Virus record (IMG/VR): IMGVR_UViG_3300025751_000013
Coordinates: 45,901 to 109,900 of that record
Reading direction: 5' to 3' (one strand)
DNA: 64,000 nucleotides
Source of the DNA: a virus
Lineage: Duplodnaviria; Caudoviricetes
Under the pieces are notes generated by a model. It had not been told where the DNA came from, made no database searches, and was given only the letters and a program-made list of their open reading frames with translations. Position numbers and translations under genes: made by a program. Positions 1 through 29,400 of this stretch are shown here, one piece after another; the stretch's first letter is position 1, and every line of letters begins with the position of its first letter.

Positions 1-2928
1 ATTAGAGAAAATCCATTTAAGGTCGGAGATAAAATTAAACTAAAACCAAATAGTTTGACATTTACATGTGCATATGATACTACTACTCCGTTATCATATC
101 CAGATTATAACGGCGGAACTGGTGCAGCTCCAGCATGGCAAGCAGATTTAGAAATCACAGCAGCAGATGATGTTAGTATTACTGTTAACGTTGGAGATGC
201 CGCAGGCGCAGCAGCAACTAGTGTTCATACATTTGTAAGTGCAGATATTGATACTATTAGTTTAGTTCCAGGATATGTAACACCAAGCCCAACTGGTTAT
301 GATGCAGGAACTTACCTAAGTACATATAAACAAGCTAGAGATAATATCGAAGCTAACAGAGAGTTTATAATTGCAGACGTAATCGGATTCATTGAAACTG
401 ATGATACATTACTAGGATTTGACAGAGATACTTGTGCAAGAGATACTGGACTAATAATTGATGCAATATCATGGGATTTAGTATTTGATTCAAACCAACA
501 AAGTATTACAGCAGGTAGAGGATATCTAAGACAAGATGTAGGAGTTCTTCCAGCAACTCAAACAGCAGCTACAACAGCAGGATTTGATAGACTAAGAGAC
601 TTACTTTTGGCTCTAGTAATTCAAACTGGTGCAGATGCAGAAAGAGCAAAAGAAAGTATTTCGGCTAACATTGGTCTAATAAATGATATCATTACTAATG
701 GTGATAGTCAAACAATTCCATCTAGAAAACTTCCAGCACCAACAACAGGCGCAGCAATTGTTCCAACTGCTATTACATATACTCCAGCTGATGGTTTAAT
801 GGTTATTACATCAGAAGCGCATGGTTTAAATGTAGGCGATTATGTAATGATTGCAGACGAGAGTTTAACATTTACTTGTGAAAGTTCTCTAGGAAGTGGT
901 ATACTAGAAAAAATTAGTCATCCAAGATCAAACGAGTATGCAAGCCGTAGAGCAATTATTGTTTCAGCAGTAGCTGATGCCAATACATACACTATTAACA
1001 TTGATCCAAATCTTGAAAACAGTGGCGACGGTAATGTTGCTCATACATTTGTAAGTGCAAGCGCAAATGCAATTAAGAAAGCAGAAGATGCTAATGGTAA
1101 ATTAGATGTATTCTTTAACATTAGCGCACAGCGTACATGGATTATCGATGCAGTAGAAGACTATATTGAAGATGCTACCGGATTAAATCAACCAGCTGGT
1201 AGTTGGAATACCAAGTGTAAAGAAGACATAGGTCTAATAATTGACGCAGCATTGTATGACTTAATGTACGGTACCAATCTTGAAACACGCACAGCAGCAC
1301 AAGCATATACAACCGATGCAGGTGTATTACTACTAGGTGCAGACCCAACTGAAAGATCTAACACTATTGCAGCATATGTATATCTAGCAGACTTGCTTGA
1401 GCAAGTTGGTAATGATGTAGTTACAGAAACTTTATATGGCGATACAGCAACAGCTGGATTTACAGCAACTGGTACAGTACCAGGCGGCAACGGATCTCCT
1501 GCACTAGCAGCTCATGATAGTGTTGAAGTTGTTAGAGCTTACCTAGATGCATATGTTACAAGTGCAACTGATAATGCAACTGACAAAGCAGCAGCAGAAG
1601 CTACACTTCCTGCAGTTGCTTATGGTTCGAGAACTTGGTCTTCAACTACACAACAAGCTATATTCAACCAATTCCAAAGTGAACGTCAAGAATTGCAAGA
1701 TGCAGTTACAGCGTTTATTGAAGAGAACTTTGCTTATGTGCAAGAAAAATGTAAGAGAGATGTAGGCTATATTCTAGATGCAGTTTATTACGATATGACA
1801 TATGGTGGTAATAGCGAAACGTTTACAGTTGGTAAGAGTTACTTCTCCGACGAAGGTGTAAATCAATTAAGAACACTAAGAGAAGTAAATGCAACTCAAG
1901 CAGCATACGGACACTTAAGAGACTTAGTAGAAGCAGTTGCCATTGGTGATGACACCGTGGCGTTGATTGCAACTCCTAAACAGACAGATATTGCTTATAA
2001 TTCAACAGCAGTTGATCAGGGAGGCAGCAATGCTGGTAGTACCCAGGCTAAATTACTAATAAGCAATGTGTTAAGTTTCTTAGATGATACTATTAATAGA
2101 ACAAATGTAATACCAACTGTAGCTGAAACTACTCCATCTACATCATGGGTAGCAGCTGATCTAGTAACAGCCGCAACTGCACTAACTGATGCAAAGCGTA
2201 CAGTACAAGATGAAACAACTGTATTCATTGAAGAAAATTATGCTTACATTAAATCTAAGTGTGAAAGAGATATTAGATACATTGTAGATGCAGTTGCATA
2301 CGACATATTCTATGGTGGTAACTCACAAGCACATCTAGCAGCAGAGCAATATTTTGACGGAGGTAATTATCAAATACCAGTTCCAACAAAGAATGCTACA
2401 GTACAGACATTTAAATATCTACTAGAAATAATGTCAGATGCTGTACGTAACATTACTGTGTCTGCATTACAAAATAGAGTAATCCAAACTACAACTGGCG
2501 CATCTGCAACAACGTTTGAAGCAGATCGTATTAAGGACTTGTTAACAATTATTGTTAATCTAGTACAGCATGGTTACTCAAGTCAAGTTACATTTGATGT
2601 TAATATCACAACAATACCGAGAATTAACGAAAGTGTAACATTCCACCAAACAAGTTTGATTACAGCAAGTGGACAAACATTTGAGTGGGTTGGATCCGGA
2701 ACTAATATTCAATCAGCGGTTCCATACAAAGGCGGACAACCAGTTGAAGCACAACAGGTAGTGGAAAGTAACGAAGGTAAAGTTTACTTTACAAGTACTG
2801 ACCAAAAAGGTGACTTCAAAATTGGTAACAGCTTAACTATTGAACGTGCGTCTGGTACGATTACTGGACAGACTTTTGATAGATCACTATTCGCGGTGTT
2901 AACACCATACATCTTGTCACTACAGTAA
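1..2928 (+). CDS. Large virion structural protein (baseplate/fibre-associated), 5'-truncated; SLTFTC...HTFVSA beta modules plus four CxxDxxxI(I/L/V)DA helical repeats
   Basis: The frame is open from base 1, so the true start is upstream. Repeated modules; C-terminal SGQTFEWVGSG...GKVYFTSTDQKGDF region and hydrophobic end LTPYILSLQ, as I recall from T4-like phage structural proteins. Confidence 0.65.
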   Translation: MRENPFKVGDKIKLKPNSLTFTCAYDTTTPLSYPDYNGGTGAAPAWQADLEITAADDVSITVNVGDAAGAAATSVHTFVSADIDTISLVPGYVTPSPTGYDAGTYLSTYKQARDNIEANREFIIADVIGFIETDDTLLGFDRDTCARDTGLIIDAISWDLVFDSNQQSITAGRGYLRQDVGVLPATQTAATTAGFDRLRDLLLALVIQTGADAERAKESISANIGLINDIITNGDSQTIPSRKLPAPTTGAAIVPTAITYTPADGLMVITSEAHGLNVGDYVMIADESLTFTCESSLGSGILEKISHPRSNEYASRRAIIVSAVADANTYTINIDPNLENSGDGNVAHTFVSASANAIKKAEDANGKLDVFFNISAQRTWIIDAVEDYIEDATGLNQPAGSWNTKCKEDIGLIIDAALYDLMYGTNLETRTAAQAYTTDAGVLLLGADPTERSNTIAAYVYLADLLEQVGNDVVTETLYGDTATAGFTATGTVPGGNGSPALAAHDSVEVVRAYLDAYVTSATDNATDKAAAEATLPAVAYGSRTWSSTTQQAIFNQFQSERQELQDAVTAFIEENFAYVQEKCKRDVGYILDAVYYDMTYGGNSETFTVGKSYFSDEGVNQLRTLREVNATQAAYGHLRDLVEAVAIGDDTVALIATPKQTDIAYNSTAVDQGGSNAGSTQAKLLISNVLSFLDDTINRTNVIPTVAETTPSTSWVAADLVTAATALTDAKRTVQDETTVFIEENYAYIKSKCERDIRYIVDAVAYDIFYGGNSQAHLAAEQYFDGGNYQIPVPTKNATVQTFKYLLEIMSDAVRNITVSALQNRVIQTTTGASATTFEADRIKDLLTIIVNLVQHGYSSQVTFDVNITTIPRINESVTFHQTSLITASGQTFEWVGSGTNIQSAVPYKGGQPVEAQQVVESNEGKVYFTSTDQKGDFKIGNSLTIERASGTITGQTFDRSLFAVLTPYILSLQ

Positions 2929-2941
2929 GAGGAAATAAATC

Positions 2942-3280
2942 ATGGCCGAACCATTAAACGTATTTAAGACAATAACAGCAGACTTAACAACTGGGAACGA
3001 AATTGTATATACTGCCCCAGACGGAAAAACTGCAATCATATTGATGGCACAAATATCAAATGTAACAACTACAGCAGCAGCTACTAGTTTTTTACACTTT
3101 GATGCTTTCACTGCTGATCAAACAGAACTACTATCTAATTTTGTAGTTCCAGGTAACGATGCTACAAGTCCTATCACAGGTAAACTTGTGGTAGAAGAAA
3201 ATAACTCGTTACGGGCACAAGCATCAGTAAACGATGCACTAGTGTTAACATTAAGCTTATTGGAGTCACTAAATGCATAA
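2942..3280 (+). CDS. Small beta-rich virion adaptor-like protein (paralog of 3931..4263)
   Basis: SD GAGG upstream. FKT...NEIVYTAP...AQISN...GKLVVEE..SL...LSLLE pattern is shared with 3931..4263. Confidence 0.6.
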   Translation: MAEPLNVFKTITADLTTGNEIVYTAPDGKTAIILMAQISNVTTTAAATSFLHFDAFTADQTELLSNFVVPGNDATSPITGKLVVEENNSLRAQASVNDALVLTLSLLESLNA

Positions 3281-3854
3281 TATAGGATTATTAAGTAACA
3301 GAGTCAAAAAGACTCCAGCGTTAAACGCTGAGAGTTACAGATATACATATCTTGACTTGGAAAATGCTGAACCGGATTGGGGTGTACCTGATACCGCTAA
3401 AGCAGATAACAAAGGTATTAACATTAATCGAGGCCTTGCTGCTTCGGATACACAAGGTACTAGAAACTGGGTTGTAATTGGTCCAGGTCTTAGAATTAAT
3501 GGTGATGATGTTTTACTCGTTGACGAGGAAGCATTTGTTAGTTTGACAGGGGACCAAGAATTTAGCGGTACAAAGACATTCCTTGATCAAATAGTTATTG
3601 GGTCAACTGACTCTACTGACTTAGGTGAAAGATTACGTGTAGACGGTACTATATCGGTCAATAATATCACTACACAGAATCCTGCTTTTAATTTAGTAGA
3701 TACAGTTGCTGAAATTATTAACTTTGGCGGACAGGGTACTGACATTAATATCGGTTCTAGCTTTGGTACAACTACAATTAATAATGATTTAATTATTAAA
3801 GGTAACGTAACAATCGAAGGTACCGAACAAAATATGGACGGTGGTTATTATTAA
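3273..3854 (+). CDS. Short fibre/linker protein (GLLSxRVxKTP...AExDxGVP N-terminus; C-terminal DGGYY)
   Basis: Overlaps the upstream gene. N-terminus is paralogous to 4256..4903; fibre-like motifs (GDQEFSGTKTF). Confidence 0.55.
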   Translation: MHNIGLLSNRVKKTPALNAESYRYTYLDLENAEPDWGVPDTAKADNKGININRGLAASDTQGTRNWVVIGPGLRINGDDVLLVDEEAFVSLTGDQEFSGTKTFLDQIVIGSTDSTDLGERLRVDGTISVNNITTQNPAFNLVDTVAEIINFGGQGTDINIGSSFGTTTINNDLIIKGNVTIEGTEQNMDGGYY

Positions 3855-3858
3855 TAAT

Positions 3859-3894
3859 TTAGCAAGGTTCACATATAGAAACCTTGCTAATTTT
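3859..3894 (+). terminator. Intrinsic terminator
   Basis: TTAGCAAGGTT / AACCTTGCTAA 11-bp stem, 10-nt loop, then TTTT, just after the stop at 3854. Confidence 0.75.
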
Positions 3895-3899
3895 ATTAA

Positions 3900-3906
3900 C
3901 TAAATA
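3900..3906 (+). promoter_or_regulatory. T4-like late promoter box (CTAAATA)
   Basis: TAAATA after a terminator and before SD AAGGA and the ATG at 3931; the same box precedes many genes here. Confidence 0.6.
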
Positions 3907-3930
3907 TCATAGTGATAAAAGGACGCACAG

Positions 3931-4263
3931 ATGCCAAATAATAGTTTTAAATCTGTTAACACAGTAATAACTACAGTTAATGAAGTAATCTATACAGCCC
4001 CTCCGGGATTTACAACAATTGTGATTAACGCACAATTAGCAAACACAGCAGAAACAGACGTCAATTGTACATTTAGTTATGTTGAAAGTTCTTCAGGAAG
4101 TGAAACAAATCTTATAAGAGATTTTCGTGTTAGAGGTAACCAATCGCAGTCTGCGATTATGGGACGTCTAGTTATTAACGAAAACGACTCAATTAAGTGT
4201 CGATCAAATATCGATGCACCAATAAGATTAAGTTTAAGCTTGCTGGAGACTGAGGATGTCTAG
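3931..4263 (+). CDS. Small beta-rich virion adaptor-like protein (paralog of 2942..3280)
   Basis: FKS...NEVIYTAP...AQLAN...GRLVINE.DS...LSLLE pattern. Confidence 0.6.
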   Translation: MPNNSFKSVNTVITTVNEVIYTAPPGFTTIVINAQLANTAETDVNCTFSYVESSSGSETNLIRDFRVRGNQSQSAIMGRLVINENDSIKCRSNIDAPIRLSLSLLETEDV

Positions 4264-4903
4264 AGGAATAGGGTTACTCAGTGGTAGAGTAACTAAGACA
4301 CCGCCAACAGAAGTTGAATCTGTTGCGCCGGATAGATTTACGTTTATTGATGTTTCAACTGCTGAGGCAGACCTAGGCGTACCTCCTGGCAACGACTACT
4401 TTCTTACCTCTGATACAGTCGGTAACAGATCATGGTTACCTCCGGGGTCACTAGGATTAAACGGTGAAGAAAACGAACTTGTTTTTATTAAAAACGGCGT
4501 AAGTGCATCAACTACTAATATAGAATACGACGAAGTTACTGATAGTATAAAATTTCATAATTCTTATCAGCAACGAGGTACTGCTAAAGTAATATCAGAT
4601 GACAGTTCTTTTACTGACGGAGTAATTGCAACGTTTGATAAAAACTCTTTTGGCAGTGCAAAATATATTGTGCAGGCTGACACACCTTCACGTAAAAGAC
4701 AAATAAGTGAACTACTTTTAGTTCATGACGGTACCAATGCTTCGGCAACAGAATTCGGTGTTATACACACTACAGACCTTCCTATTGCTGAATTTGATGT
4801 AGATATTGAAGGTGATTTAGTAAGATTATTAGCAACAAATGCTATAGATGATTCTACCGAAAATGTAAGTTTTCGTATAGTAGAAATGCTGATGCTAATC
4901 TAA
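4256..4903 (+). CDS. Fibre linker protein: GLLSGRV...DLGVP N-terminus, C-terminal SAKYIVQ...ELLLVHDG...TEFG beta domain
   Basis: N-terminus paralogous to 3273..3854; C-terminal domain of a type I recall from phage fibre proteins. Confidence 0.55.
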   Translation: MSRGIGLLSGRVTKTPPTEVESVAPDRFTFIDVSTAEADLGVPPGNDYFLTSDTVGNRSWLPPGSLGLNGEENELVFIKNGVSASTTNIEYDEVTDSIKFHNSYQQRGTAKVISDDSSFTDGVIATFDKNSFGSAKYIVQADTPSRKRQISELLLVHDGTNASATEFGVIHTTDLPIAEFDVDIEGDLVRLLATNAIDDSTENVSFRIVEMLMLI

Positions 4904-4935
4904 TAAAACAGTACATTATTATCCGCTTAAGCTTC

Positions 4936-4967
4936 AATTGGCATAAATACCTTACAGCATGCCAATT
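4936..4967 (+). promoter_or_regulatory. Late promoter box (TAAATA 4944-4949) bracketed by a perfect 9-bp inverted repeat
   Basis: AATTGGCAT (4936-4944) and ATGCCAATT (4959-4967), followed by SD GGGGAG. Confidence 0.55.
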
Positions 4968-4984
4968 AGGGGAGAGTGAACCGG

Positions 4985-5428
4985 ATGGCTAATAATAAAA
5001 AGTTCGTAGTCAAAAATGGACTACGCACCCATAACATTGACTTTACAACAACAGATTTGACAAAAACCATTCTTATGGATATTGACAATCTAGGTGATCT
5101 AAATGTTATCGGTGAGGGCAAAATCGTAGTAGGCGATTATGATGACAGTAGTAGTGTCATCGATCCTACAACTAAAATTGAGGTAATAGGTAATATTACA
5201 GCTTTTAAAGTAAAAGCTGATTTCCAGGGGGATGTGTTTGGGCAAGACTCTTCTCGACTTGTGGACTCTAATAACGGAGAGTTTAACGGATTTTTAAATG
5301 GGCAAGTAAGTAGTTTAGATAATCATACAACTGATGATCTAGATGAGGGCACACAAAATCTTTACTTTACGAAACAGAGAGCAAGACGTGAAGCAAGAAT
5401 AATGGCACTGATCTTTGGGAGTAACTAA
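4985..5428 (+). CDS. Short fibre linker protein (KFVVKNGL N-terminus; TTDDLxEGxxNLYFT motif; hydrophobic C-terminal MALIFG)
   Basis: ATG at 4985 fits the SD better than the GTG at 4976; shares motifs with the giant ORF. Confidence 0.6.
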   Translation: MANNKKFVVKNGLRTHNIDFTTTDLTKTILMDIDNLGDLNVIGEGKIVVGDYDDSSSVIDPTTKIEVIGNITAFKVKADFQGDVFGQDSSRLVDSNNGEFNGFLNGQVSSLDNHTTDDLDEGTQNLYFTKQRARREARIMALIFGSN

Positions 5429-5431
5429 TAT

Positions 5432-8400
5432 ATGTCTTTTATAAGCACGACAAGAGTAATAGAGAACAATCAAGAGGTTTTATTCGAAGGCCCATTAGAT
5501 AAAGAAAGTAATGTACACACAGTTGCCGTACTGAATGAAGGTGTTTCGCCTAATTCTACAACCGATCCAATTAAAGTTACATTAAGTCTTTATGATGCAT
5601 CTGAGCCCGCGACAAGACCTTTTGCGATACTAGAAGTTGCTCCAGGTACTGATGCACAGTATACTAAAGTTATAAACATACGTCCTGGAGATCAACTAAG
5701 AGCCGAAACTGATGGTGGTGAAGTCACTATTATGATCGGCGCTTTCGTTGATGAAGATACTCTAGTAACAAGTATTTTTAATATAACAGGGCAGTATGAT
5801 CATACAGTTACATATCAACCATATGATGTTGCATATTATCTTGGGTCAACATATGTTAATACAACAGTAGACCAAACTGCTGTATATCCTACACAAGTTA
5901 ATGGCGGTTGGACACCTTTAGGTTCTGGATTTAACGCATATGGTGAATTTGATCCACTTGTATTATATCCGCCGTTGTCTGTTGTTAAGTGGGCTAACAA
6001 TGTTTATGTTACAGTTACAGGATCTCCTGTTGGAGTTTATCCGAATGATTATAACAGTACGTGGATTTCTTTTACATCATTAACAAGTGACGAAATTCCA
6101 GATACGTCTGGTGTAAGTGCAAACGTTGCCGCAAGTATTACAATACTTAATAACAGATTAAACACACTTACTACAACTGAAGTCCCAGAAGCATCTGATG
6201 CCGATTTAGAAGCAGCATCAGGATTTGAAAATGCTTACTTTACTAGAGCTAGAGCTCGTGAATCTATTAGTGTAACAGGTGACTTAATTTATGATGTTAA
6301 CACTGGTGTATTATCGGCTCAAACATTAACACAAGATGATGTTAATATATTCATTGACAATAGAGTGTCAAAATCATTTGTTGATGCATTAGGAGTTGAT
6401 GCAGATACAGTTGATGGAATTGAAGGCACAGTATTAGCACGAACTGATATATCTCCAACATTTAGTCAAAACATTATAGTTTCAGGAGAAATGCGTGGCG
6501 ACCTACGTGGTAATGTATTAGCTGACGATAGTAGTATTATAATCAATCATGCTACAAAAGAAATTAACGGACGTTTCGAAGGTACACTAATTGCAGCAAA
6601 TAGTGATGTTATTTTAAATACAGGTATAGATGGTTTTGACGCTACGTTCACTGGTACTACATTTGGTGAACATAGAGGTGATGTTTTATCAGACGATTCG
6701 AATGTAATCATTGATGCTAGTTCAGGATTAATAAGCGGTGACTTAGAAGGTAACGTCACTGCAACCTTTGGTGTGTCACGATTTAATGATATTATTACTG
6801 ATAACATTATTGTTCAAGAAGAATTACAAGTTGCTAACATTTTAGGTAACATTACGTCAACAGGTGTTAGTACATTTAATAACGTTGATATTAATGGCGG
6901 TTATATTGATAACGCTGTTATAAACACAACTAATATTACAGGTACAACTATTGTAGGTACCTATATAGAAGCACAAACTGGTGGATTTAGAGGTGATATT
7001 CTATCCACAGGTACATCACGTTTCAACGACTTGATCGTTACAGGTGATCTAACATTTAACACATTAGAGGTACAAGCACTTGCTGACTTTAAATCTCTTG
7101 TAAATATCGACGGCGGACTTACAGTTGGCGGAACACTTAACGTTACTGGTGGAACTACATTTGGTAATATTAATGTTACTGGTGGACAAATTAGTGGCGT
7201 TACTTTGGGTAGTGGATCTTATCCAGTTGATATCGTTGCAGATGATGTAACAATTTTAAATTCATTTACTGCTACAGATGTTACTGCTGAATTTTCGACA
7301 TTAATAGTTACAGACGAAATGACAGGTGATGTCAGCGGTAACTTGAGAGGAAATGTATTATCACAAGATGGTACAACTGTTATAATAGATGCATTTGCTG
7401 GAATTATCAGAGGCGACTTAGTCGGCGACACAGTAGGACAACATACTGGTAATGTTGACGGTAATGTTGTAGGTAATGTAACAGGTAATGTTACTGCTGC
7501 TGCTGGACTATCGTCATTCTCTAGTATGAATGCACAAATTGGTGACATTGCTGCTCTTGAAGCAGGCTCATTAACAGTTACTGGTGCAGCAAGTTTTACA
7601 GGTGATCTAACATTTGACACACTACAAATTGCTTCATTAGCAGTTAATAACACATTGACAGTTTCTGGTATTTCAACCCTTGGATCAGTAGACATCGGCG
7701 GCGGCACAATGGATGCTGTAACAATCGGTGGCAATGTGCCTGCAAGTGTTACTGGTACAATTTTTACCGGTGACAAAATGTTTGCTGATTTATTTACAGG
7801 TAGCCTAAAGGGTGTCGTAGAAGGATCAGTTGAAGGTGACTTATACGGTAATGTCCTAGGATTAGATAGTTCAATCGTTCTAAATACAAGTACTGCAAGA
7901 GCTACATTAGATGCTGATGTTACTGGACAGATTGATGCAACAGCAAATGGTGGCGGCGAAAGTAGATTTGATGATATAACCATTACTGGTGTATTTTCGT
8001 TACAAGGCGGCGGCCAACTTACGGGTGATCTAACAGGTAATGTAGTAGGTGACGTTACAGGTGATGTATATGCAAGTAACGGAGATAAGATTTTAGAAAC
8101 AGGCAACGGAACAACTATTCCTGCAAAGTTAACAGGTAATGTAGAAGGCGAAGTATTAGGTACATTTACTGGTACAGCTTCTGGAGACTTCACAGGTGAT
8201 GTATTTGCTTACGATTCAACTAAAATGCTTGATGCGTTTTCTAATATATTGAGGGGTGATTTAGTTGGTAATGTAAGTGGTAATGTTTTAGGCGATTTAA
8301 CAGGTAATGTTAACACTACAGGAACTCAAAGCGATGGTTTCTTTAGAAACTTAACAGTTGAAGATACACTTACATTTCCATCATTGAATATTTCGACAAT

Positions 8401-23400: not shown

Positions 23401-26400
23401 TCAAGGTGGTATTGGTATATCTGAAAATATACATGCAGGAGGCACTTTGACGTTAACTGGACTTGCATCACTAGCAACTGGCATAAATGTTAATAATGAT
23501 TTTGTAGTAGATGCAGACGGCAATACTGACTTGTCAAGTGGTGCAACACTAACAGTTGACGGTGAAGTAAACTTTAATGGCGGTCTTGTAATGGACACTG
23601 ACAGGTTTACTGTAGCAAACGGTTCCGGTAATGTCGCAACGGCTGGCACACTTGATGTAAGTGGGAATACTACACTAACATCTGTTACTACATCAGGAAT
23701 GGCTTCATTAAATGCAGGCATTGAAGTAGACACAACGAAGTTTACTGTAGACGGCGGCACAGGTGCTGTTGTTACACAAAGTACTTTAACAGTTGACGGC
23801 ATCACTACGCTTAATTCAGATCTATCTGTAACAGGAAGTAATGATATAAGAATAATTGACGCTCTTACTGCAAATGTATTTGAAGTAAACGGAACAACAG
23901 GCGCAACACTGATTACAGGTAACCTTACAATGGACGGATCTGTAGGCGCAGGTAATCTTGACATAGGTGGCAACTTTACAGTAGCAAATGCAACAGGTAA
24001 TACAGACATAACAGGTACATTAGATGTAACTGGTGATACTACAGTAGATGTGTTTAGTGCAGGTACAAGCACATTAGGTACAACTTCTATTACTGGTACA
24101 TCTCTAACAGTAGGTTCTGACTTTACTGTAACAGGAACAAATGGTGTAACTGAAATAGGTGGTATGTTAAGTGCAGATGGCGGTATCGAAGTAAGAAATA
24201 CTGCTAACACTGCTGAAGCATTTAGTGTTGCACTTGGCACAGGTAATACTAATATAGTAGGTACACTTGATGTAACTGGTACAACTACTGTACATGATTT
24301 AAGTATTACTGGTACACTAGGTGTAACAGAAGGACTAACTGTAACAGACGACTTTAGTGTTAACGGGAACTTTGTAGTAACTGCCGCAACAGGTAATACA
24401 GACATAACAGGTACATTAGATGTAACTGGTGATACTACAGTAGATGTGTTTAGTGCAGGTACAAGCACATTAGGTACAACTTCTATTACTGGCACAACTT
24501 TATCAGTAGGTTCTGATTTTACCGTAACAGGAGCAAGTGGTGTAACTGAAATAGGCGGCATGTTAAGCGCAGACGGAGGCATCCAGGTAAGAAATACTGC
24601 TAATACTGCTGAAGCATTTAGTGTTGCACTTGGTACAGGTAATACTAATATAGTAGGTACATTAGATGTAACTGGTACAACCACTGTACATGACTTAAAT
24701 ATCACCGGCGCATTAGGTGTAACAGAAGGACTAACAGTAACAGACGACTTTAGTGTTAACGGAAATTTTGTAGTAACTGCCGCAACAGGTAATACACAAA
24801 TTGATGGAACTCTTACAGCAGACGGCAACTTTAACATTAACAACCAGTTTACTGTAACAGCATCTACAGGTGCAACAAATATTGCAAGCGGTCCGTTAAC
24901 AGTTGGCGGGTTAACTACACTTAATGGTGGTATTACAGCAGACGGCGGCGTGTTTACTGTAGCAGATGGTACTGGTAGTATTGCTACAAGTGGCACTTTA
25001 TCTGTAACAGGTGCTACAACTTTAAGTAGTACATTAAGTGCAGACGGCGGCATTGAAGTAAGAAATACAGGTAATACAGCAGAAGCATTTAGTGTACAAG
25101 CAGGTACTGGTAATATAGATACCGAAGGTACACTTGATGTAGGTGGTGATGTTACTATAGGAACTAACGTAGTTACTATAGACGCTGGAAACGGAAATAC
25201 AATTATTGCCGGTACATTAAATGTAAATACAAGTGCAACAGTAGCATCGTTACGTGTGTCAGACTTAACTACAGTTAATGCTGTATTGCTCGGCCAATCA
25301 TCAGGTGAAGTTGCTGATAGTTCAAACCTAACATTTAGCGGTAGTTTACTCGATGTAACAGGCAGCATTGATGTATCGGGCAATGTAGATATTGCAGGAA
25401 ATGTATTTGCTGATAATGCTTATATAGAAACTTTAAATGTTAACGAAATACCAGTTACAGGAAGTGCTGGGTTAATTACAGGTTCGAGTGCATTTACATT
25501 TAACCCAACAGGTGGTATATTAAGCGTAACTGGTAGTATAACTACAAACGGCACTGTAACTGGATCAACTTTCTTAGGAAACATTACTGCTCCAGGAACA
25601 AGTACTTTCTCAGGACAAACTAACTTAAATGGTCCGGTTACTTTATCTAATAATTTAACAATAGGTGCAAGTGTAGGTAGTATTAACGCAACCAGTGGTG
25701 CTATTGCAACAAATTCAACAATAACAGCAGGTGGCTTAGCAAGTCTAAATGGTGGCATTAATGTTGATAGTGGTGCATTTACTGTATCAGGAGATGGTTT
25801 TGGTAGTGTCTTTATAGACGGTCAAACAAATATTGATAATAATCTATTAATTACAAGCTCTGGAGATATTACACTAAGTGACGGTGTGTCTACTGTAATC
25901 ACACTAGATGGCGCAACAGGCGGAATTAGTGCAGATGGTAATTTAGACATTGCAGGTGATGCTAATCTTTACGGTAGTATTACAAGAATAGGTAATGCTG
26001 TATCTGATGAATTAGAAATTAACTCTGTACTAACAAAAGGCTTTTACTTAAAAGCAGGTACATTAAATGCAGATATAGGTAGTACAACTACAAGATTTGC
26101 TGATGCGTTTTTAGAAAATTTAAATGTATCAGAGAATGTTACTATTGCAGGTGATTTAACTGTAGAAGGAGAGTTTACAACTGTAAATGCACAAACTGTT
26201 GCTATAGCAGATAATATCATTACATTGAACTCGGGACAAGCAGCAGCGGATGCAGGAATTGAAATAGATTTATCTGGTACTACAAAAGAACTAAAATGGG
26301 CTAATACTGCCGGTGAATGGACAGTTGGCTCGGAAACATTTGTTGCAGGAGCGTTTAGAGGTGACTTACATGCAAGTGATAGTGCTGTATTAATTAACCA

Positions 26401-29400
26401 GACAACTAAAGCAGTAGATGTTGCAAGTGTAACTACAAGCGGAAACACAACAGTAGGCGGAATACTTGCTGTAAATGGTACAAACTTAAATGTTGGTTCA
26501 GGAAACTTTGTTGTAACAGGTGCAAATGGTAACACTGATATTGCAGGTATACTTAATGTAGGTAGTAGTAACTTTACTGTACAACCAGGATCAGGTAACA
26601 CATTAGTTGCTGGTACATTAGGTATAACAGGTCTAACAACTATAGATACATCAACTATTACCGGTGTAATGAATGTTACAAGTTCAATAGACTCGACTGG
26701 AACAACTAACGGCGCTATTAAGATACTAGGTGGGATTGGTCTATCTGGTAATATACATATGGGCGGCAATTTACATGTTGGTGGTACAATTAACGCAACA
26801 AGCGGTACTATTACTGGAACTACTTTAGGCACTACATCAAGCAGAGTTACAATAGAAGCTGATAATATCGGTGTTAGTGGTCTAATTACAGGTGACATTA
26901 GTGGTTCTGTAACAAGTGGTAACGTTGCAATTACTGGCGGTACAATTAATACTACTCCAATAGGCGGCGCAAGTGCTGCTACAGCAGATGTTATTAGAGG
27001 TACAGTAATCACAGCAGAAACTAACTTTGTCGGAAATATTACTGGTAACGTTACATCAACTGGTACATCTACATTTGACGGTATAGATGTAAGCGGCGGC
27101 GAGATAGACGGTACAGTAATAGGTGGTAACGATCCTGCAAACATAACTGGTTTAGTTATTGAAGCAGACACAGAATTTAGAGGAAACATTGTTGCTGCAT
27201 CAGGAACAAGTTCATTTACAAATTTAACTGTAAACGGAAATATTACTAACACAGGTTCAACAAGTACTGCAACGTTTAGAGATTTAAGTGTAGTTGGTAA
27301 CTTTGTTCCTAACGCTCTTAATGTTACTACTGATGCAGACATAGGCGGCAACTTAACTGTTGGCGGCACTGCACAATTTGACACAACTCTATTACAAGTT
27401 AATCAAGCTGCAACAGGTGTACCGGCCAATTCACTAACAGCAGGTATTGAAGTAAGCAGAGGTAGTTCTCCATCTAAAAGACTTAACTGGGACGAAGGCG
27501 GATCAACCTGGACAGTAAGTACTGAGAAATTTACAGCAGGTACATTTGAAGCTACTAGTACAATTACTGCCCCAACTGTAACTGCTGATGTAACTGGTAA
27601 TGTAACTGGTAACATAACATCATCTGGATCATCATCGTTTACTACAGTTGATATTAACGGTGGTACTATTGACGGCACTGTTATAGGTTCTAACTCACCT
27701 GCTGCTATAACTGGTACAACTATTACTTCTAACTCAGGCTTTAGTGGTAACTTAACAGGTAACGTAACAGGCAATGTAACTTCAACTGGTACTTCAACAT
27801 TTACAACTGTTGACATTAACGGTGGTGCCATTGATGGTACTACAGTAGGTGCAACAACAGCCGCAACTGTACGTGGTACTACAATCACAGCAACAACTGG
27901 TTTTGTAGGTGATATTACTGGTGACTTAACTGGTCTAGCAGATAGAGCAGATAAATTAGAAACAACACGAACAATTGCGTTAGCTGGCGATGTTGCTGGT
28001 AGTATCGGATTCGATGGTACTTCAAATGTAACTATTAATACAACAATACAACCTAACAGTGTAGATATTGTTGCAGATACAACAGGCGATTATGCAAGAA
28101 CTGTAACTGTAAGTGGCAATGGTTTGTCGATTACTGGAACACAGGGACACGATATAGCTTATCAAGTAATATCAAATGCAGTTTCAACTAACACAGCAAG
28201 TACAATAGTATTTAGAGATACATTTGGTGCATTTAGTGCAGGCGACATAACAGGTTCGCTTATTACTGCTAACACTAGATTAGACGGCATTACAAGGGGT
28301 AATGTACAATCTACTGCTGACGGTGCATTTGCAGCAGGTGTTACACTTGTAAATGCAGCAGACAGAACATTAGACAATATTAAAGATATTACATCCGAAG
28401 ATGGTACATTTGATACAATTGACATTAATGGTGGTAATATAGACGGTACTGTAATCGGTGGTGCAACACCAGCAGCAGGTACATTTCTTGCATTAGAAGG
28501 TACGACTATCGAAGCAACAACAGGATTTACTGGAGATTTAACAGGTGATGTGCTCGCAAGTGATGCAAGTGTAATACTTAATCATACAGCAAAATCAGTT
28601 AATGCAACAAACTTAGATGGTATATTAGGTGCTAATACAGCAGCGGCTGCAACAGTAACAACACTAGCAGCAAGTGGTGCAGTAACTCTTACAGCAGGCA
28701 CAGCATCTAACTCAACTACAACAGGTACACTTGTTATAACAGGCGGTGCAGGCGTAAGTGGCACAGTAAGTGCAGGACAATTTGTTGGTCCGGTACAAGG
28801 TGCTTTAGTTGGCACAGTTGGCGCAGGCGGAATTGCAAATAGAAACTCAGGTGAATTTACAACTGTAAATACTGATAGTAATGTTGTAGTTGGCGGCTCA
28901 CTTACTGTTAACTCTGCAACATCAACATTTAGTACTGTTGATATTAACGGCGGCGCAATAGACGGAACACGTATAGGTGGTGCTACACCTGATAACGCAG
29001 ACTTCTTAGATGTAGAAGGTACAACAATTACAGCATCTACAGGGTTTGTAGGTAACATTACTGCACCGTCAGGTGGTACAGTAGGAACATCTACACTACA
29101 TGATTTAGATCTACAAGGTGACTTAACTGTAGCAAGCGGAAGTATTATATTTGGTGCCAACACTGTAATTGACAATAGTAGAAATGCTACGTTTAATGAC
29201 TTAACTGTACAAGGTACATTCTTACCAAACACATTGAATGTTACATCAACAGCCGTAATAGGAACAGACTTAACAGTTAATGGCGACCTTACAGTTAATG
29301 GCACAACTACAACACTTGATACTGATAATATTACACTGGCAGATAACACAATTGTACTGAATACAGGATATTCAGGACTGTCAAGTGGCGCATTTACATC

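What the first reader, a model, noticed from the sequence alone, without database searches (positions are those of the whole stretch)
2860..5800. Plug-and-socket chain of fibre genes leading into the giant protein
Seen: a two-gene cassette occurs twice, a ~110-aa 'YTAP' beta protein followed by a protein starting GLLSxRVxKTP...AExDxGVP (2942/3273 and 3931/4256). A diverged third copy of the ~110-aa domain appears fused to the N-terminus of the 9,511-aa ORF (NQEVLFEGP...VAVLN...INIRPGDQLRA). Two of these three domains directly follow a gene ending in a short hydrophobic helix (LTPYILSLQ, RIMALIFGSN). Other junctions show short terminal motifs too (C-terminal DGGYY; a SAKY domain followed by an N-terminal KFVVKNGL). 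Inference: each gene's end docks onto the next gene's product, so gene order spells out a swappable assembly chain for branched or very long appendages.
Basis: partly seen in the sequence, partly recalled or inferred. Interest (0 to 1): 0.8.

Follow-up and report, generated by a model that had tools for sequence, protein, structure and literature searches.

The report
Jelly-roll joints between phage fibre genes
This uncultured T4-like aquatic phage carries small jelly-roll "connector" proteins, one of them fused to the front of a 9,511-residue fibre, and most sit directly after a fibre gene ending in a short greasy tail peptide; the same undescribed pairing recurs in hundreds of other phages and probably joins fibre pieces end to end, but binding has not been shown.

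Summary
B1 (2942-3280) and B2 (3931-4263) are paralogues (38% identity, E 5e-28). C1 and C2 share an N-terminal 83-residue head (41%). The first ~110 residues of the 9,511-aa ORF are a distant third copy (profile-profile 94%, E 1.5e-7; same predicted 8-strand jelly-roll).

Across 169 sources holding sequence (mostly IMG/VR contigs), 87 of 113 non-redundant genes directly upstream of such a jelly-roll end in one of two hydrophobic tail motifs, against 4 of 1,059 other ORFs. Three of those four were misfiled: two led to an unrecognised jelly-roll gene, one of them a fourth pair in this genome, and one was an A-type gene one short ORF away from a B gene.

Best reading: a three-part fibre joint made of a C-terminal tail tag, a jelly-roll and the next fibre's head, which is either a separate protein with its own N-terminal tag or fused. 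It is a positional analogue of T4 gp34-35-36-37.

Not supported: the DGGYY-to-B2 and C2-to-D junctions. A terminator-like hairpin separates C1 from B2, which leaves B2 as an orphan socket.

Binding is untested; the one complex prediction gave no answer. The scan reached the same reading at least six times on other genomes. The fused form on a giant protein is what this window shows in addition.

The parts
2518..2928 (+). Conserved C-terminal domain of fibre protein A (4,958 aa in the whole genome). It ends in the PYIL-type hydrophobic tail (2899-2925) and the stop codon.
   Evidence: 38-sequence alignment A3, 52% mean column identity, tail nearly invariant; PHROG tail-fibre C-terminal hits.
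2942..3280 (+). B1, a 112-aa jelly-roll connector (phrog_1276, no Pfam family).
   Evidence: (pLDDT 89.7)
3273..3854 (+). C1, a 193-aa fibre piece with the conserved N-terminal head tag (LLSxRVKKTP type). It overlaps B1 by 8 nt and ends in DGGYY.
3859..3890 (+). Terminator-like hairpin followed by a U-rich run, between C1 and B2.
   Evidence: -16.1 kcal/mol, z -5.7; consensus scan.
3931..4263 (+). B2, a 110-aa diverged paralogue of B1. It is an orphan socket: no tail-bearing gene lies directly upstream.
4256..4903 (+). C2, a 215-aa fibre piece with the same N-terminal head tag and a different C-terminal domain. It overlaps B2 by 8 nt.
4985..5428 (+). D, a 147-aa protein (ATG 4985) that ends in the IF-type hydrophobic tail (5396-5425).
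   Evidence: (L168 has the same arrangement)
5432..5760 (+). Jelly-roll domain fused to the N-terminus of the 9,511-aa fibre (ORF 5432-33967). A low-confidence linker follows at residues 112-119.

Best explanation
The ~110-aa proteins B1 and B2, the first ~110 residues of the giant ORF, and a fourth 119-aa protein 18.7 kb upstream of the window are members of one superfamily of small single jelly-roll virion proteins. They most likely act as joints in modular fibres. Shown: homology, predicted fold, and a strong conserved gene-order rule. Inferred: the short hydrophobic peptide at the extreme C-terminus of the upstream fibre piece, often tethered by a Gly/Ser linker, docks onto the jelly-roll. 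The jelly-roll in turn holds the next fibre piece, either non-covalently through that piece's conserved N-terminal tag (B1-C1, B2-C2, translationally coupled) or covalently (the giant). Each jelly-roll subfamily pairs with its own tail class and its own head tag, so gene order would encode assembly order, as in the T4 long tail fibre. In this phage the predicted joints are X to B4, A to B1-C1, and D to the giant. B2-C2 is a second socket-plus-fibre cassette without its own plug; it may compete for or share A's tails, but that is speculation. The alternation of large and small hydrophobic residues in the tails would suit strand addition to the beta-sandwich. That too is only a sequence-based guess.
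For: Homology among the four subfamilies: hhalign 94%, 95.3% and 77.5%, 97.2% and 96.1%. Fold. Synteny: the A-tail, B, C-head triad occurs in nearly all 80 IMG/VR loci and in P-SSM2, S-SRM01 and S-SKS1. IF-type tails precede jelly-rolls in a pelagiphage podovirus, phage DSL-LC04, Synechococcus phages Bellamy and S-SKS1, and S-TIM5, and in 42 of 61 non-redundant lectin-type loci. Enrichment is 87/113 vs 4/1,059. Prospective test: orphan tails in G000 and L021 led to unrecognised jelly-roll genes. Within the C family, 3 of 3 proteins with a tail are followed by a jelly-roll and 47 of 51 without a tail are not. Tails sit on unrelated proteins of 54 to 1,727 aa, after Gly/Ser-rich linkers. Head tags are subfamily-specific: 42/58 and 39/71, against 6 and 4 of 1,092. 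The jelly-roll overlaps its downstream gene by -8 nt in 70/91 loci and by -1 nt in 43/79. The fused forms always carry the domain at the N-terminus, and P0048 has both a socket and an IF-type tail. Structural neighbours in BFVD are named virion structural proteins, and the S-TIM5 upstream partner is annotated as a virion protein.
Against: No direct evidence of binding exists. About a quarter of jelly-roll genes follow genes with other C-termini (aromatic or acidic ends). S-CBWM1 has the protein in a non-structural context. L159 has a tail with no jelly-roll after it. B2 has no plug. The enrichment statistic counts related loci and is not phylogenetically corrected. The model of B1 is a complete jelly-roll with no obvious missing strand.
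Confidence: 0.55

Rival explanations
1. The jelly-roll is a terminal cap or adhesin (lectin-like tip) that sits on the C-terminal end of the upstream fibre, like T2/S16 gp38 on gp37. It does not connect to the downstream gene product.
For: Some members are annotated 'putative lectin'. TNF/C1q-like and tail-needle-knob jelly-rolls are among the fold neighbours. In S-TIM5 the pair is not followed by a fibre gene.
Against: The domain is fused to the N-terminus, not the C-terminus, of long fibres. Downstream genes have subfamily-specific N-terminal tags and overlap the jelly-roll gene.
Confidence: 0.15
2. The jelly-roll is a fibre assembly chaperone encoded downstream of its client, like Tfa or T4 gp38/gp57A. 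It recognises the C-terminal tail during folding and is not a structural link.
For: A small gene directly downstream of a fibre gene is the classic chaperone position (established knowledge of lambda, Mu and T4 fibres).
Against: There is no Pfam hit to tail-assembly families. Relatives are named virion structural proteins. Permanent N-terminal fusion to a 9,511-aa structural protein does not fit a chaperone.
Confidence: 0.1
3. The adjacency reflects inheritance and recombination only. The tail, the jelly-roll gene and the head tag form a conserved junction that moves as one block or serves as a recombination linker, and the tail does not bind the jelly-roll. The jelly-roll might be a decoration or cement protein elsewhere on the particle.
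For: The top fold neighbours include a trimeric capsid cement protein (7dou). The fourth pair lies just after the capsid genes. The statistics are not phylogeny-corrected.
Against: Conservation is at protein level across myo- and podoviruses with no DNA similarity. The tail is appended to unrelated proteins, whereas the jelly-roll subfamily tracks the tail class. Presence or absence covaries within one protein family.
Confidence: 0.12

Closest known systems
T4 long tail fibre gp34-gp35-gp36-gp37 (with gp38 in T2-type phages)
   Same: Separate gene products are joined end to end. Gene order equals physical order. A small protein sits at the joint between large fibre pieces. (Established knowledge.)
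   Different: No sequence or family match was found here. The joint is a ~110-aa jelly-roll flanked by short terminal peptide tags, occurs in several classes within one genome, and can be fused to the next fibre.
Branched receptor-binding complexes built on T4 gp10-like adaptor domains (CBA120 tailspikes, G7C gp66/gp63.1, Klebsiella phage RaK2/phiK64-1; PMC10253068 for the last)
   Same: Modular docking domains and conserved terminal peptides let several exchangeable fibres or spikes attach to one another.
   Different: The docking domain is a different fold and sits inside the first spike. There, the N-terminal peptides of the second spike dock; no stand-alone jelly-roll or C-terminal hydrophobic tag is involved.
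Chain-like fibres of podophages A1002, GP4 and VP1 (PMC13730344)
   Same: Small beta-rich subunits attach to a fibre 'rope' by beta-sheet augmentation, a possible mode for tail-to-jelly-roll docking.
   Different: Those are dimers strung along one rope protein, not single joints between successive gene products. No homology was shown here.
Bacillus Ena endospore appendage subunits (7a02, 8pdz)
   Same: They are the best structural neighbours of B1 (VIA Z 9.9, rmsd 3.3 over 99 residues): small jelly-rolls linked by a terminal connector peptide.
   Different: Ena connectors are N-terminal parts of the same subunit and are fixed by disulfides. B1 has no cysteine. There is no sequence relationship, and a Z of about 9-10 is little above the background for small jelly-rolls.
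PHROG phrog_1276 (unknown function)
   Same: B1 and B2 match its first ~110 positions (E 5.6e-10 and 1.5e-8).
   Different: The profile is 325 positions long and carries no function. The giant's N-terminus does not reach it.

Membership tests
phrog_1276 | Significant match to the family HMM | tested here: met
   B1 E 5.6e-10 and B2 E 1.5e-8 over profile positions 4-111. The giant N-terminus did not match at E<0.01.
Single jelly-roll fold (viral / nucleoplasmin / TNF-like) | Eight-stranded beta-sandwich with jelly-roll strand order | tested here: met
   AF2 models have pLDDT 89.7 and 77.8. Foldseek and VIA neighbours are 7a02, 7dou, 4ind and nucleoplasmin cores, Z 8-10. These are predicted, not solved, structures.
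Three-part jelly-roll fibre joint (class proposed by this scan, not in the literature searched) | Upstream gene ends in a class-specific hydrophobic tail directly before the jelly-roll | tested here: met
   Met for A to B1, D to the giant, and X to B4. Not met for B2.
Three-part jelly-roll fibre joint (class proposed by this scan, not in the literature searched) | Downstream partner has a class-specific N-terminal tag or is fused | tested here: met
   C1 and C2 carry the tag. The giant is the fused form.
Three-part jelly-roll fibre joint (class proposed by this scan, not in the literature searched) | Tail and head physically bind the jelly-roll | not testable with these tools
   This needs biochemistry or a structure.
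T4 gp35/gp36-type fibre joint proteins | Sequence or fold homology to gp35/gp36 | tested here: inconclusive
   No Pfam, PHROG or PDB sequence hit points to them. No direct comparison with gp35/gp36 was made.
Tail fibre assembly proteins (Tfa / Caudo_TAP) | Match to the Pfam tail-assembly families | tested here: not met
   No Pfam family at E<0.1 for B1, B2 or the lectin-type relatives.
Ena (DUF3992) pilus subunits | Cys-bearing N-terminal connector and sequence family membership | tested here: not met
   No Pfam hit and no cysteine in B1. The similarity is in fold only.

The most novel reading that the evidence does not exclude
The tail tag, jelly-roll and head tag form a general, class-coded connector system used by thousands of aquatic phages, both myoviruses and podoviruses, to specify which fibre piece joins which. 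In this phage it would string a 4,958-aa and a 9,511-aa protein and several small pieces into composite or branched appendages. The orphan B2-C2 cassette would be an alternative branch on the same plug, and the fused giant would be a hard-wired joint.
Probability: 0.3. Interest if true: 0.8.

Novelty: new variant of a known kind. Interest (0 to 1): 0.62.

Why it matters
If the joint is real, it gives a simple sequence rule (tail class, jelly-roll class, head tag) for reading fibre architecture and host-range modules from metagenomic phage genomes. It would also explain how marine phages chain and swap very large receptor-binding proteins, and it would offer a small portable connector for engineering phage fibres. 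The family has no Pfam entry, and its PHROG has no assigned function. I found no description of it in the literature I searched. The fused form seen here is Rosetta-stone-type evidence that the jelly-roll belongs to the proximal end of the downstream fibre.

Tried and rejected
(1) Complex prediction with three copies of A's C-terminal 136 residues plus three copies of B1, each with a 38-row alignment, returned 'no answer' (score 0.01). It is evidence neither for nor against binding, and the 3:3 design lay outside the tool's calibration.

(2) BLASTP of the giant's N-terminus against B1 and B2 was not significant; profiles were needed.

(3) A search for longer, fused relatives of B1 found none, which is weak evidence.

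(4) blastn of the region, and tblastn of the giant N-terminus and of B4, against isolate phages found no match.

(5) PDB sequence searches with the B profile, A and a tail-bearing protein found nothing useful.

A profile scan for them gave only one locus, L168.

(7) Bellamy gp37 and gp43 looked like further jelly-rolls, but profiles did not confirm them.

(8) Multi-stretch hits of the giant N-terminus in 1,400-2,100-aa proteins (P0045, P0047, P0050) were not confirmed by the HMMs and are treated as spurious.

(9) The supplements of PMC3037559 did not list the P-SSM2 homologues, so virion proteomics for B could not be checked.

(10) A tree did not place B2 as sister of B1 (long branch), so tandem duplication versus acquisition stays open.

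Full report
**Anatomy.** The + strand of the region carries these genes, in order.
- The end of A (1-2928). In the whole 109.9-kb contig A is a 4,958-aa protein.
- B1: 2942-3280, 112 aa.
- C1: 3273-3854, 193 aa.
- B2: 3931-4263, 110 aa.
- C2: 4256-4903, 215 aa.
- D: 147 aa if started at ATG 4985, which has a purine-rich stretch just upstream; the GTG at 4976 is less likely.
- The 9,511-aa ORF: 5432-33967.

Both B-C pairs overlap by 8 nt. A to B1 and D to the giant are separated by 13 and 3 nt. C1 to B2 is separated by 76 nt that hold a strong hairpin followed by a U-rich run (-16.1 kcal/mol, z -5.7). C2 to D is separated by 81 nt with a weak hairpin (z -1.75).

**Checking the observation.**
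- B1 and B2 are clear paralogues: 38% identity over 106 residues, E 5e-28.
- C1 and C2 share only their first ~83 residues: 41% identity, E 3e-12.
- The claimed third copy on the giant is not detectable by BLASTP. A full scan of 1.84 billion representative proteins with the giant's first 120 residues found relatives in which this domain always heads proteins of ~300-400 aa or more.
- An 8-sequence profile of that domain aligns end to end with the B-family profile: hhalign 94%, E 1.5e-7, 97 columns. B2 itself hits the giant-N HMM at 1.4e-4.
- AlphaFold2 models of B1 (pLDDT 89.7) and of giant residues 1-133 (pLDDT 77.8, with a disordered linker at 112-119) have the same order of eight to nine strands.
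- Both models find the same neighbours: small jelly-rolls such as Ena subunits, the KHP40 cement protein, nucleoplasmin cores and TNF/C1q domains (best VIA Z 9.9, little above what small jelly-rolls usually reach).
- In BFVD the B1 model matches many ~105-130-aa phage proteins at TM 0.8-0.94. Several of them are named virion structural proteins.
- There is no Pfam family. PHROG phrog_1276 matches but has no function.

**Is the plug-before-socket pattern real?** Yes, and it is general.

*The A-B-C triad.* tblastn finds B in 77 cyanomyovirus records. In P-SSM2, S-SRM01 and S-SKS1 the order is as follows:
1. a large 'tail fibre / baseplate wedge' protein ending in the same PYIL-type tail;
2. the B homologue;
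3. a fibre protein with an N-terminal LSG(K/R) motif.

Eighty IMG/VR loci show the same triad almost without exception. A-type proteins there range from 427 to 4,958 aa and C-type proteins from 81 to 2,517 aa, while A's last ~100 residues and C's first ~80 stay conserved.

*A second tail class.* The IF type ends like ..AIAMAIVFG or ..DPVIAGMIF. It precedes a ~120-aa 'putative lectin' family that is homologous to B (hhalign 95.3%, E 2e-8). This pairing occurs in:
- S-SKS1, phage DSL-LC04, Pelagibacter podophage HTVC033P and Synechococcus phage Bellamy;
- 42 of 61 non-redundant IMG/VR contexts;
- S-TIM5, where a 96-aa protein annotated as a virion protein carries the tail.

D's tail belongs to this class. 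The one distant relative of the giant-N type that could be fetched (L168) is likewise preceded by a 124-aa protein with such a tail.

*Counts.* Overall, 87 of 113 non-redundant upstream genes carry one of the two tails, against 4 of 1,059 other ORFs in the same sequences (Fisher 4e-102). The loci are related, so this p-value overstates independence.

*Two tests that depend less on shared ancestry.*
- The four 'background' tails were followed up. Two led to jelly-roll genes that I had missed. One is a fourth pair in this phage: G000 25821-26837 followed by 26852-27211, whose profile matches B at 97.2% and giant-N at 96.1%. A third was an A-type gene separated from B by one inserted 87-aa ORF. 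Only L159 is a true exception.
- Within the single C-type family, all 3 non-redundant proteins that end in an IF tail are followed by a jelly-roll, and 47 of 51 that lack a tail are not. The 4 exceptions are the C1-to-B2 junction of this lineage.

*Where the tails sit.* They are appended, often after Gly/Ser-rich linkers, to otherwise unrelated C-terminal contexts in proteins of 54 to 1,727 aa. That is how a tethered docking peptide would look.

**The downstream side.** Each jelly-roll subfamily has its own downstream N-terminal motif:
- SGKVKK type after B in 42/58 loci, against 6 of 1,092 background ORFs;
- NGGxIG type after the lectin type in 39/71, against 4 of 1,092.

The jelly-roll gene overlaps its downstream gene by 8 nt in 70/91 B loci and by 1 nt in 43/79 lectin-type loci, which fits stoichiometric partners. 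In the giant and its relatives the downstream partner is simply fused, and one relative (P0048) carries both the N-terminal jelly-roll and an IF-type tail. In L010, L014 and L021 the units are contiguous: X (tail), jelly-roll, A (tail), B, C. In S-SKS1 and L065/L066 the series continues with C (tail), lectin-type jelly-roll and a further protein.

**Interpretation.** The best-supported reading is a three-part fibre joint: tail tag, jelly-roll, and the head of the next fibre. It is a positional analogue of the T4 long-tail-fibre joints, where gene order also equals physical order (established knowledge). I put this at about 0.55.

Homology, predicted fold and the gene-order rule are shown. The docking itself, its geometry (strand addition versus insertion in an oligomer's axis), the oligomeric state, and where on the particle the chain is anchored are all inferred.

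**What is not supported.** DGGYY and the SAKY-domain/KFVVKNGL pair are not shown to be joints.
- C1 to B2 is interrupted by the hairpin and is lineage-specific (L004-L009 only).
- B2 sits on a long branch that is not sister to B1.
- B2 keeps 11 of the 14 family-invariant residues; of the other three, T10 is Ser, L34 is Ile and the invariant Asp73 is Gln (by inspection).
- No second PYIL-type tail exists in the genome, so B2-C2 is an orphan socket cassette. Whether it shares A's tails is speculation.

**Rivals.** The alternatives are a terminal adhesin cap, an assembly chaperone, and mere block inheritance or a decoration protein. They are listed with their evidence in the rival explanations. 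The N-terminal fusion to a structural giant and the subfamily-specific head tags argue against the first two.

**Limits.**
- The only complex prediction gave no answer.
- Virion presence rests on database names, not on data I could read.

**Earlier notes of this scan.** I looked these up after reaching this reading. They describe the same joint in at least six other genomes and name the same closest analogue. They agree with this report but are not independent evidence. What this window shows in addition is the fused form on a 9,511-aa protein, an orphan socket cassette set off by a terminator-like hairpin, and four jelly-rolls of four subfamilies in one genome.

Noticed in passing
L169:922-2312 (G000:C1:25821-27211, about 18.7 kb upstream of the window start): A fourth tail-to-jelly-roll pair lies in the same genome: a 338-aa protein ending in an IF-type tail, then a 119-aa jelly-roll of a fourth subfamily, just after the capsid genes. 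In relatives L010, L014 and L021 this jelly-roll is followed directly by the A-type fibre.
   Followed up: yes
window 3859-3890: A strong terminator-like hairpin (-16.1 kcal/mol, z -5.7) with a U-rich tail lies between C1 and B2. A weaker inverted repeat lies at 4937-4968, after C2. The B2-C2 cassette is therefore bracketed by hairpins.
   Followed up: partly
L065:6594-7997 and L066:6594-7997; window 4985-5023: The N-terminal KKFVVKNGL motif of D also heads a 467-aa A-type protein in other phages, so it looks like a portable N-terminal module rather than a partner of C2's end.
   Followed up: partly
window 3837-3851; L059:3-185; L063:207-434; L065:3803-5955; L038, L043, L058 C-type genes: Many fibre-region proteins end in a ..GG/AG-x-(F/Y) motif (DGGYY, GGSF, GGTF, AGTF). 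They are often followed by proteins that start with an IQ(I/L)K(R/Y)S-type fibre N-terminus. This may be another junction code; it was not tested statistically.
   Followed up: no
window 33190-33964 (last ~260 aa of the giant): The giant's C-terminal ~240 residues match the C-termini of 971-1,030-aa fibre proteins in L038 and L058 (E about 1e-33), so the distal tip is a shared exchangeable module.
   Followed up: partly
window 1-2928 (protein A): Protein A contains repeated helical units with a conserved Cys-x-Arg-Asp motif. Earlier notes of this scan read them as phycobiliprotein-like domains. I did not examine this.
   Followed up: no
L087:4001-4396 (Synechococcus phage S-CBWM1): A lectin-type jelly-roll gene sits among metabolic and tRNA genes with no tail-bearing gene upstream. 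It is an exception to the rule.
   Followed up: no
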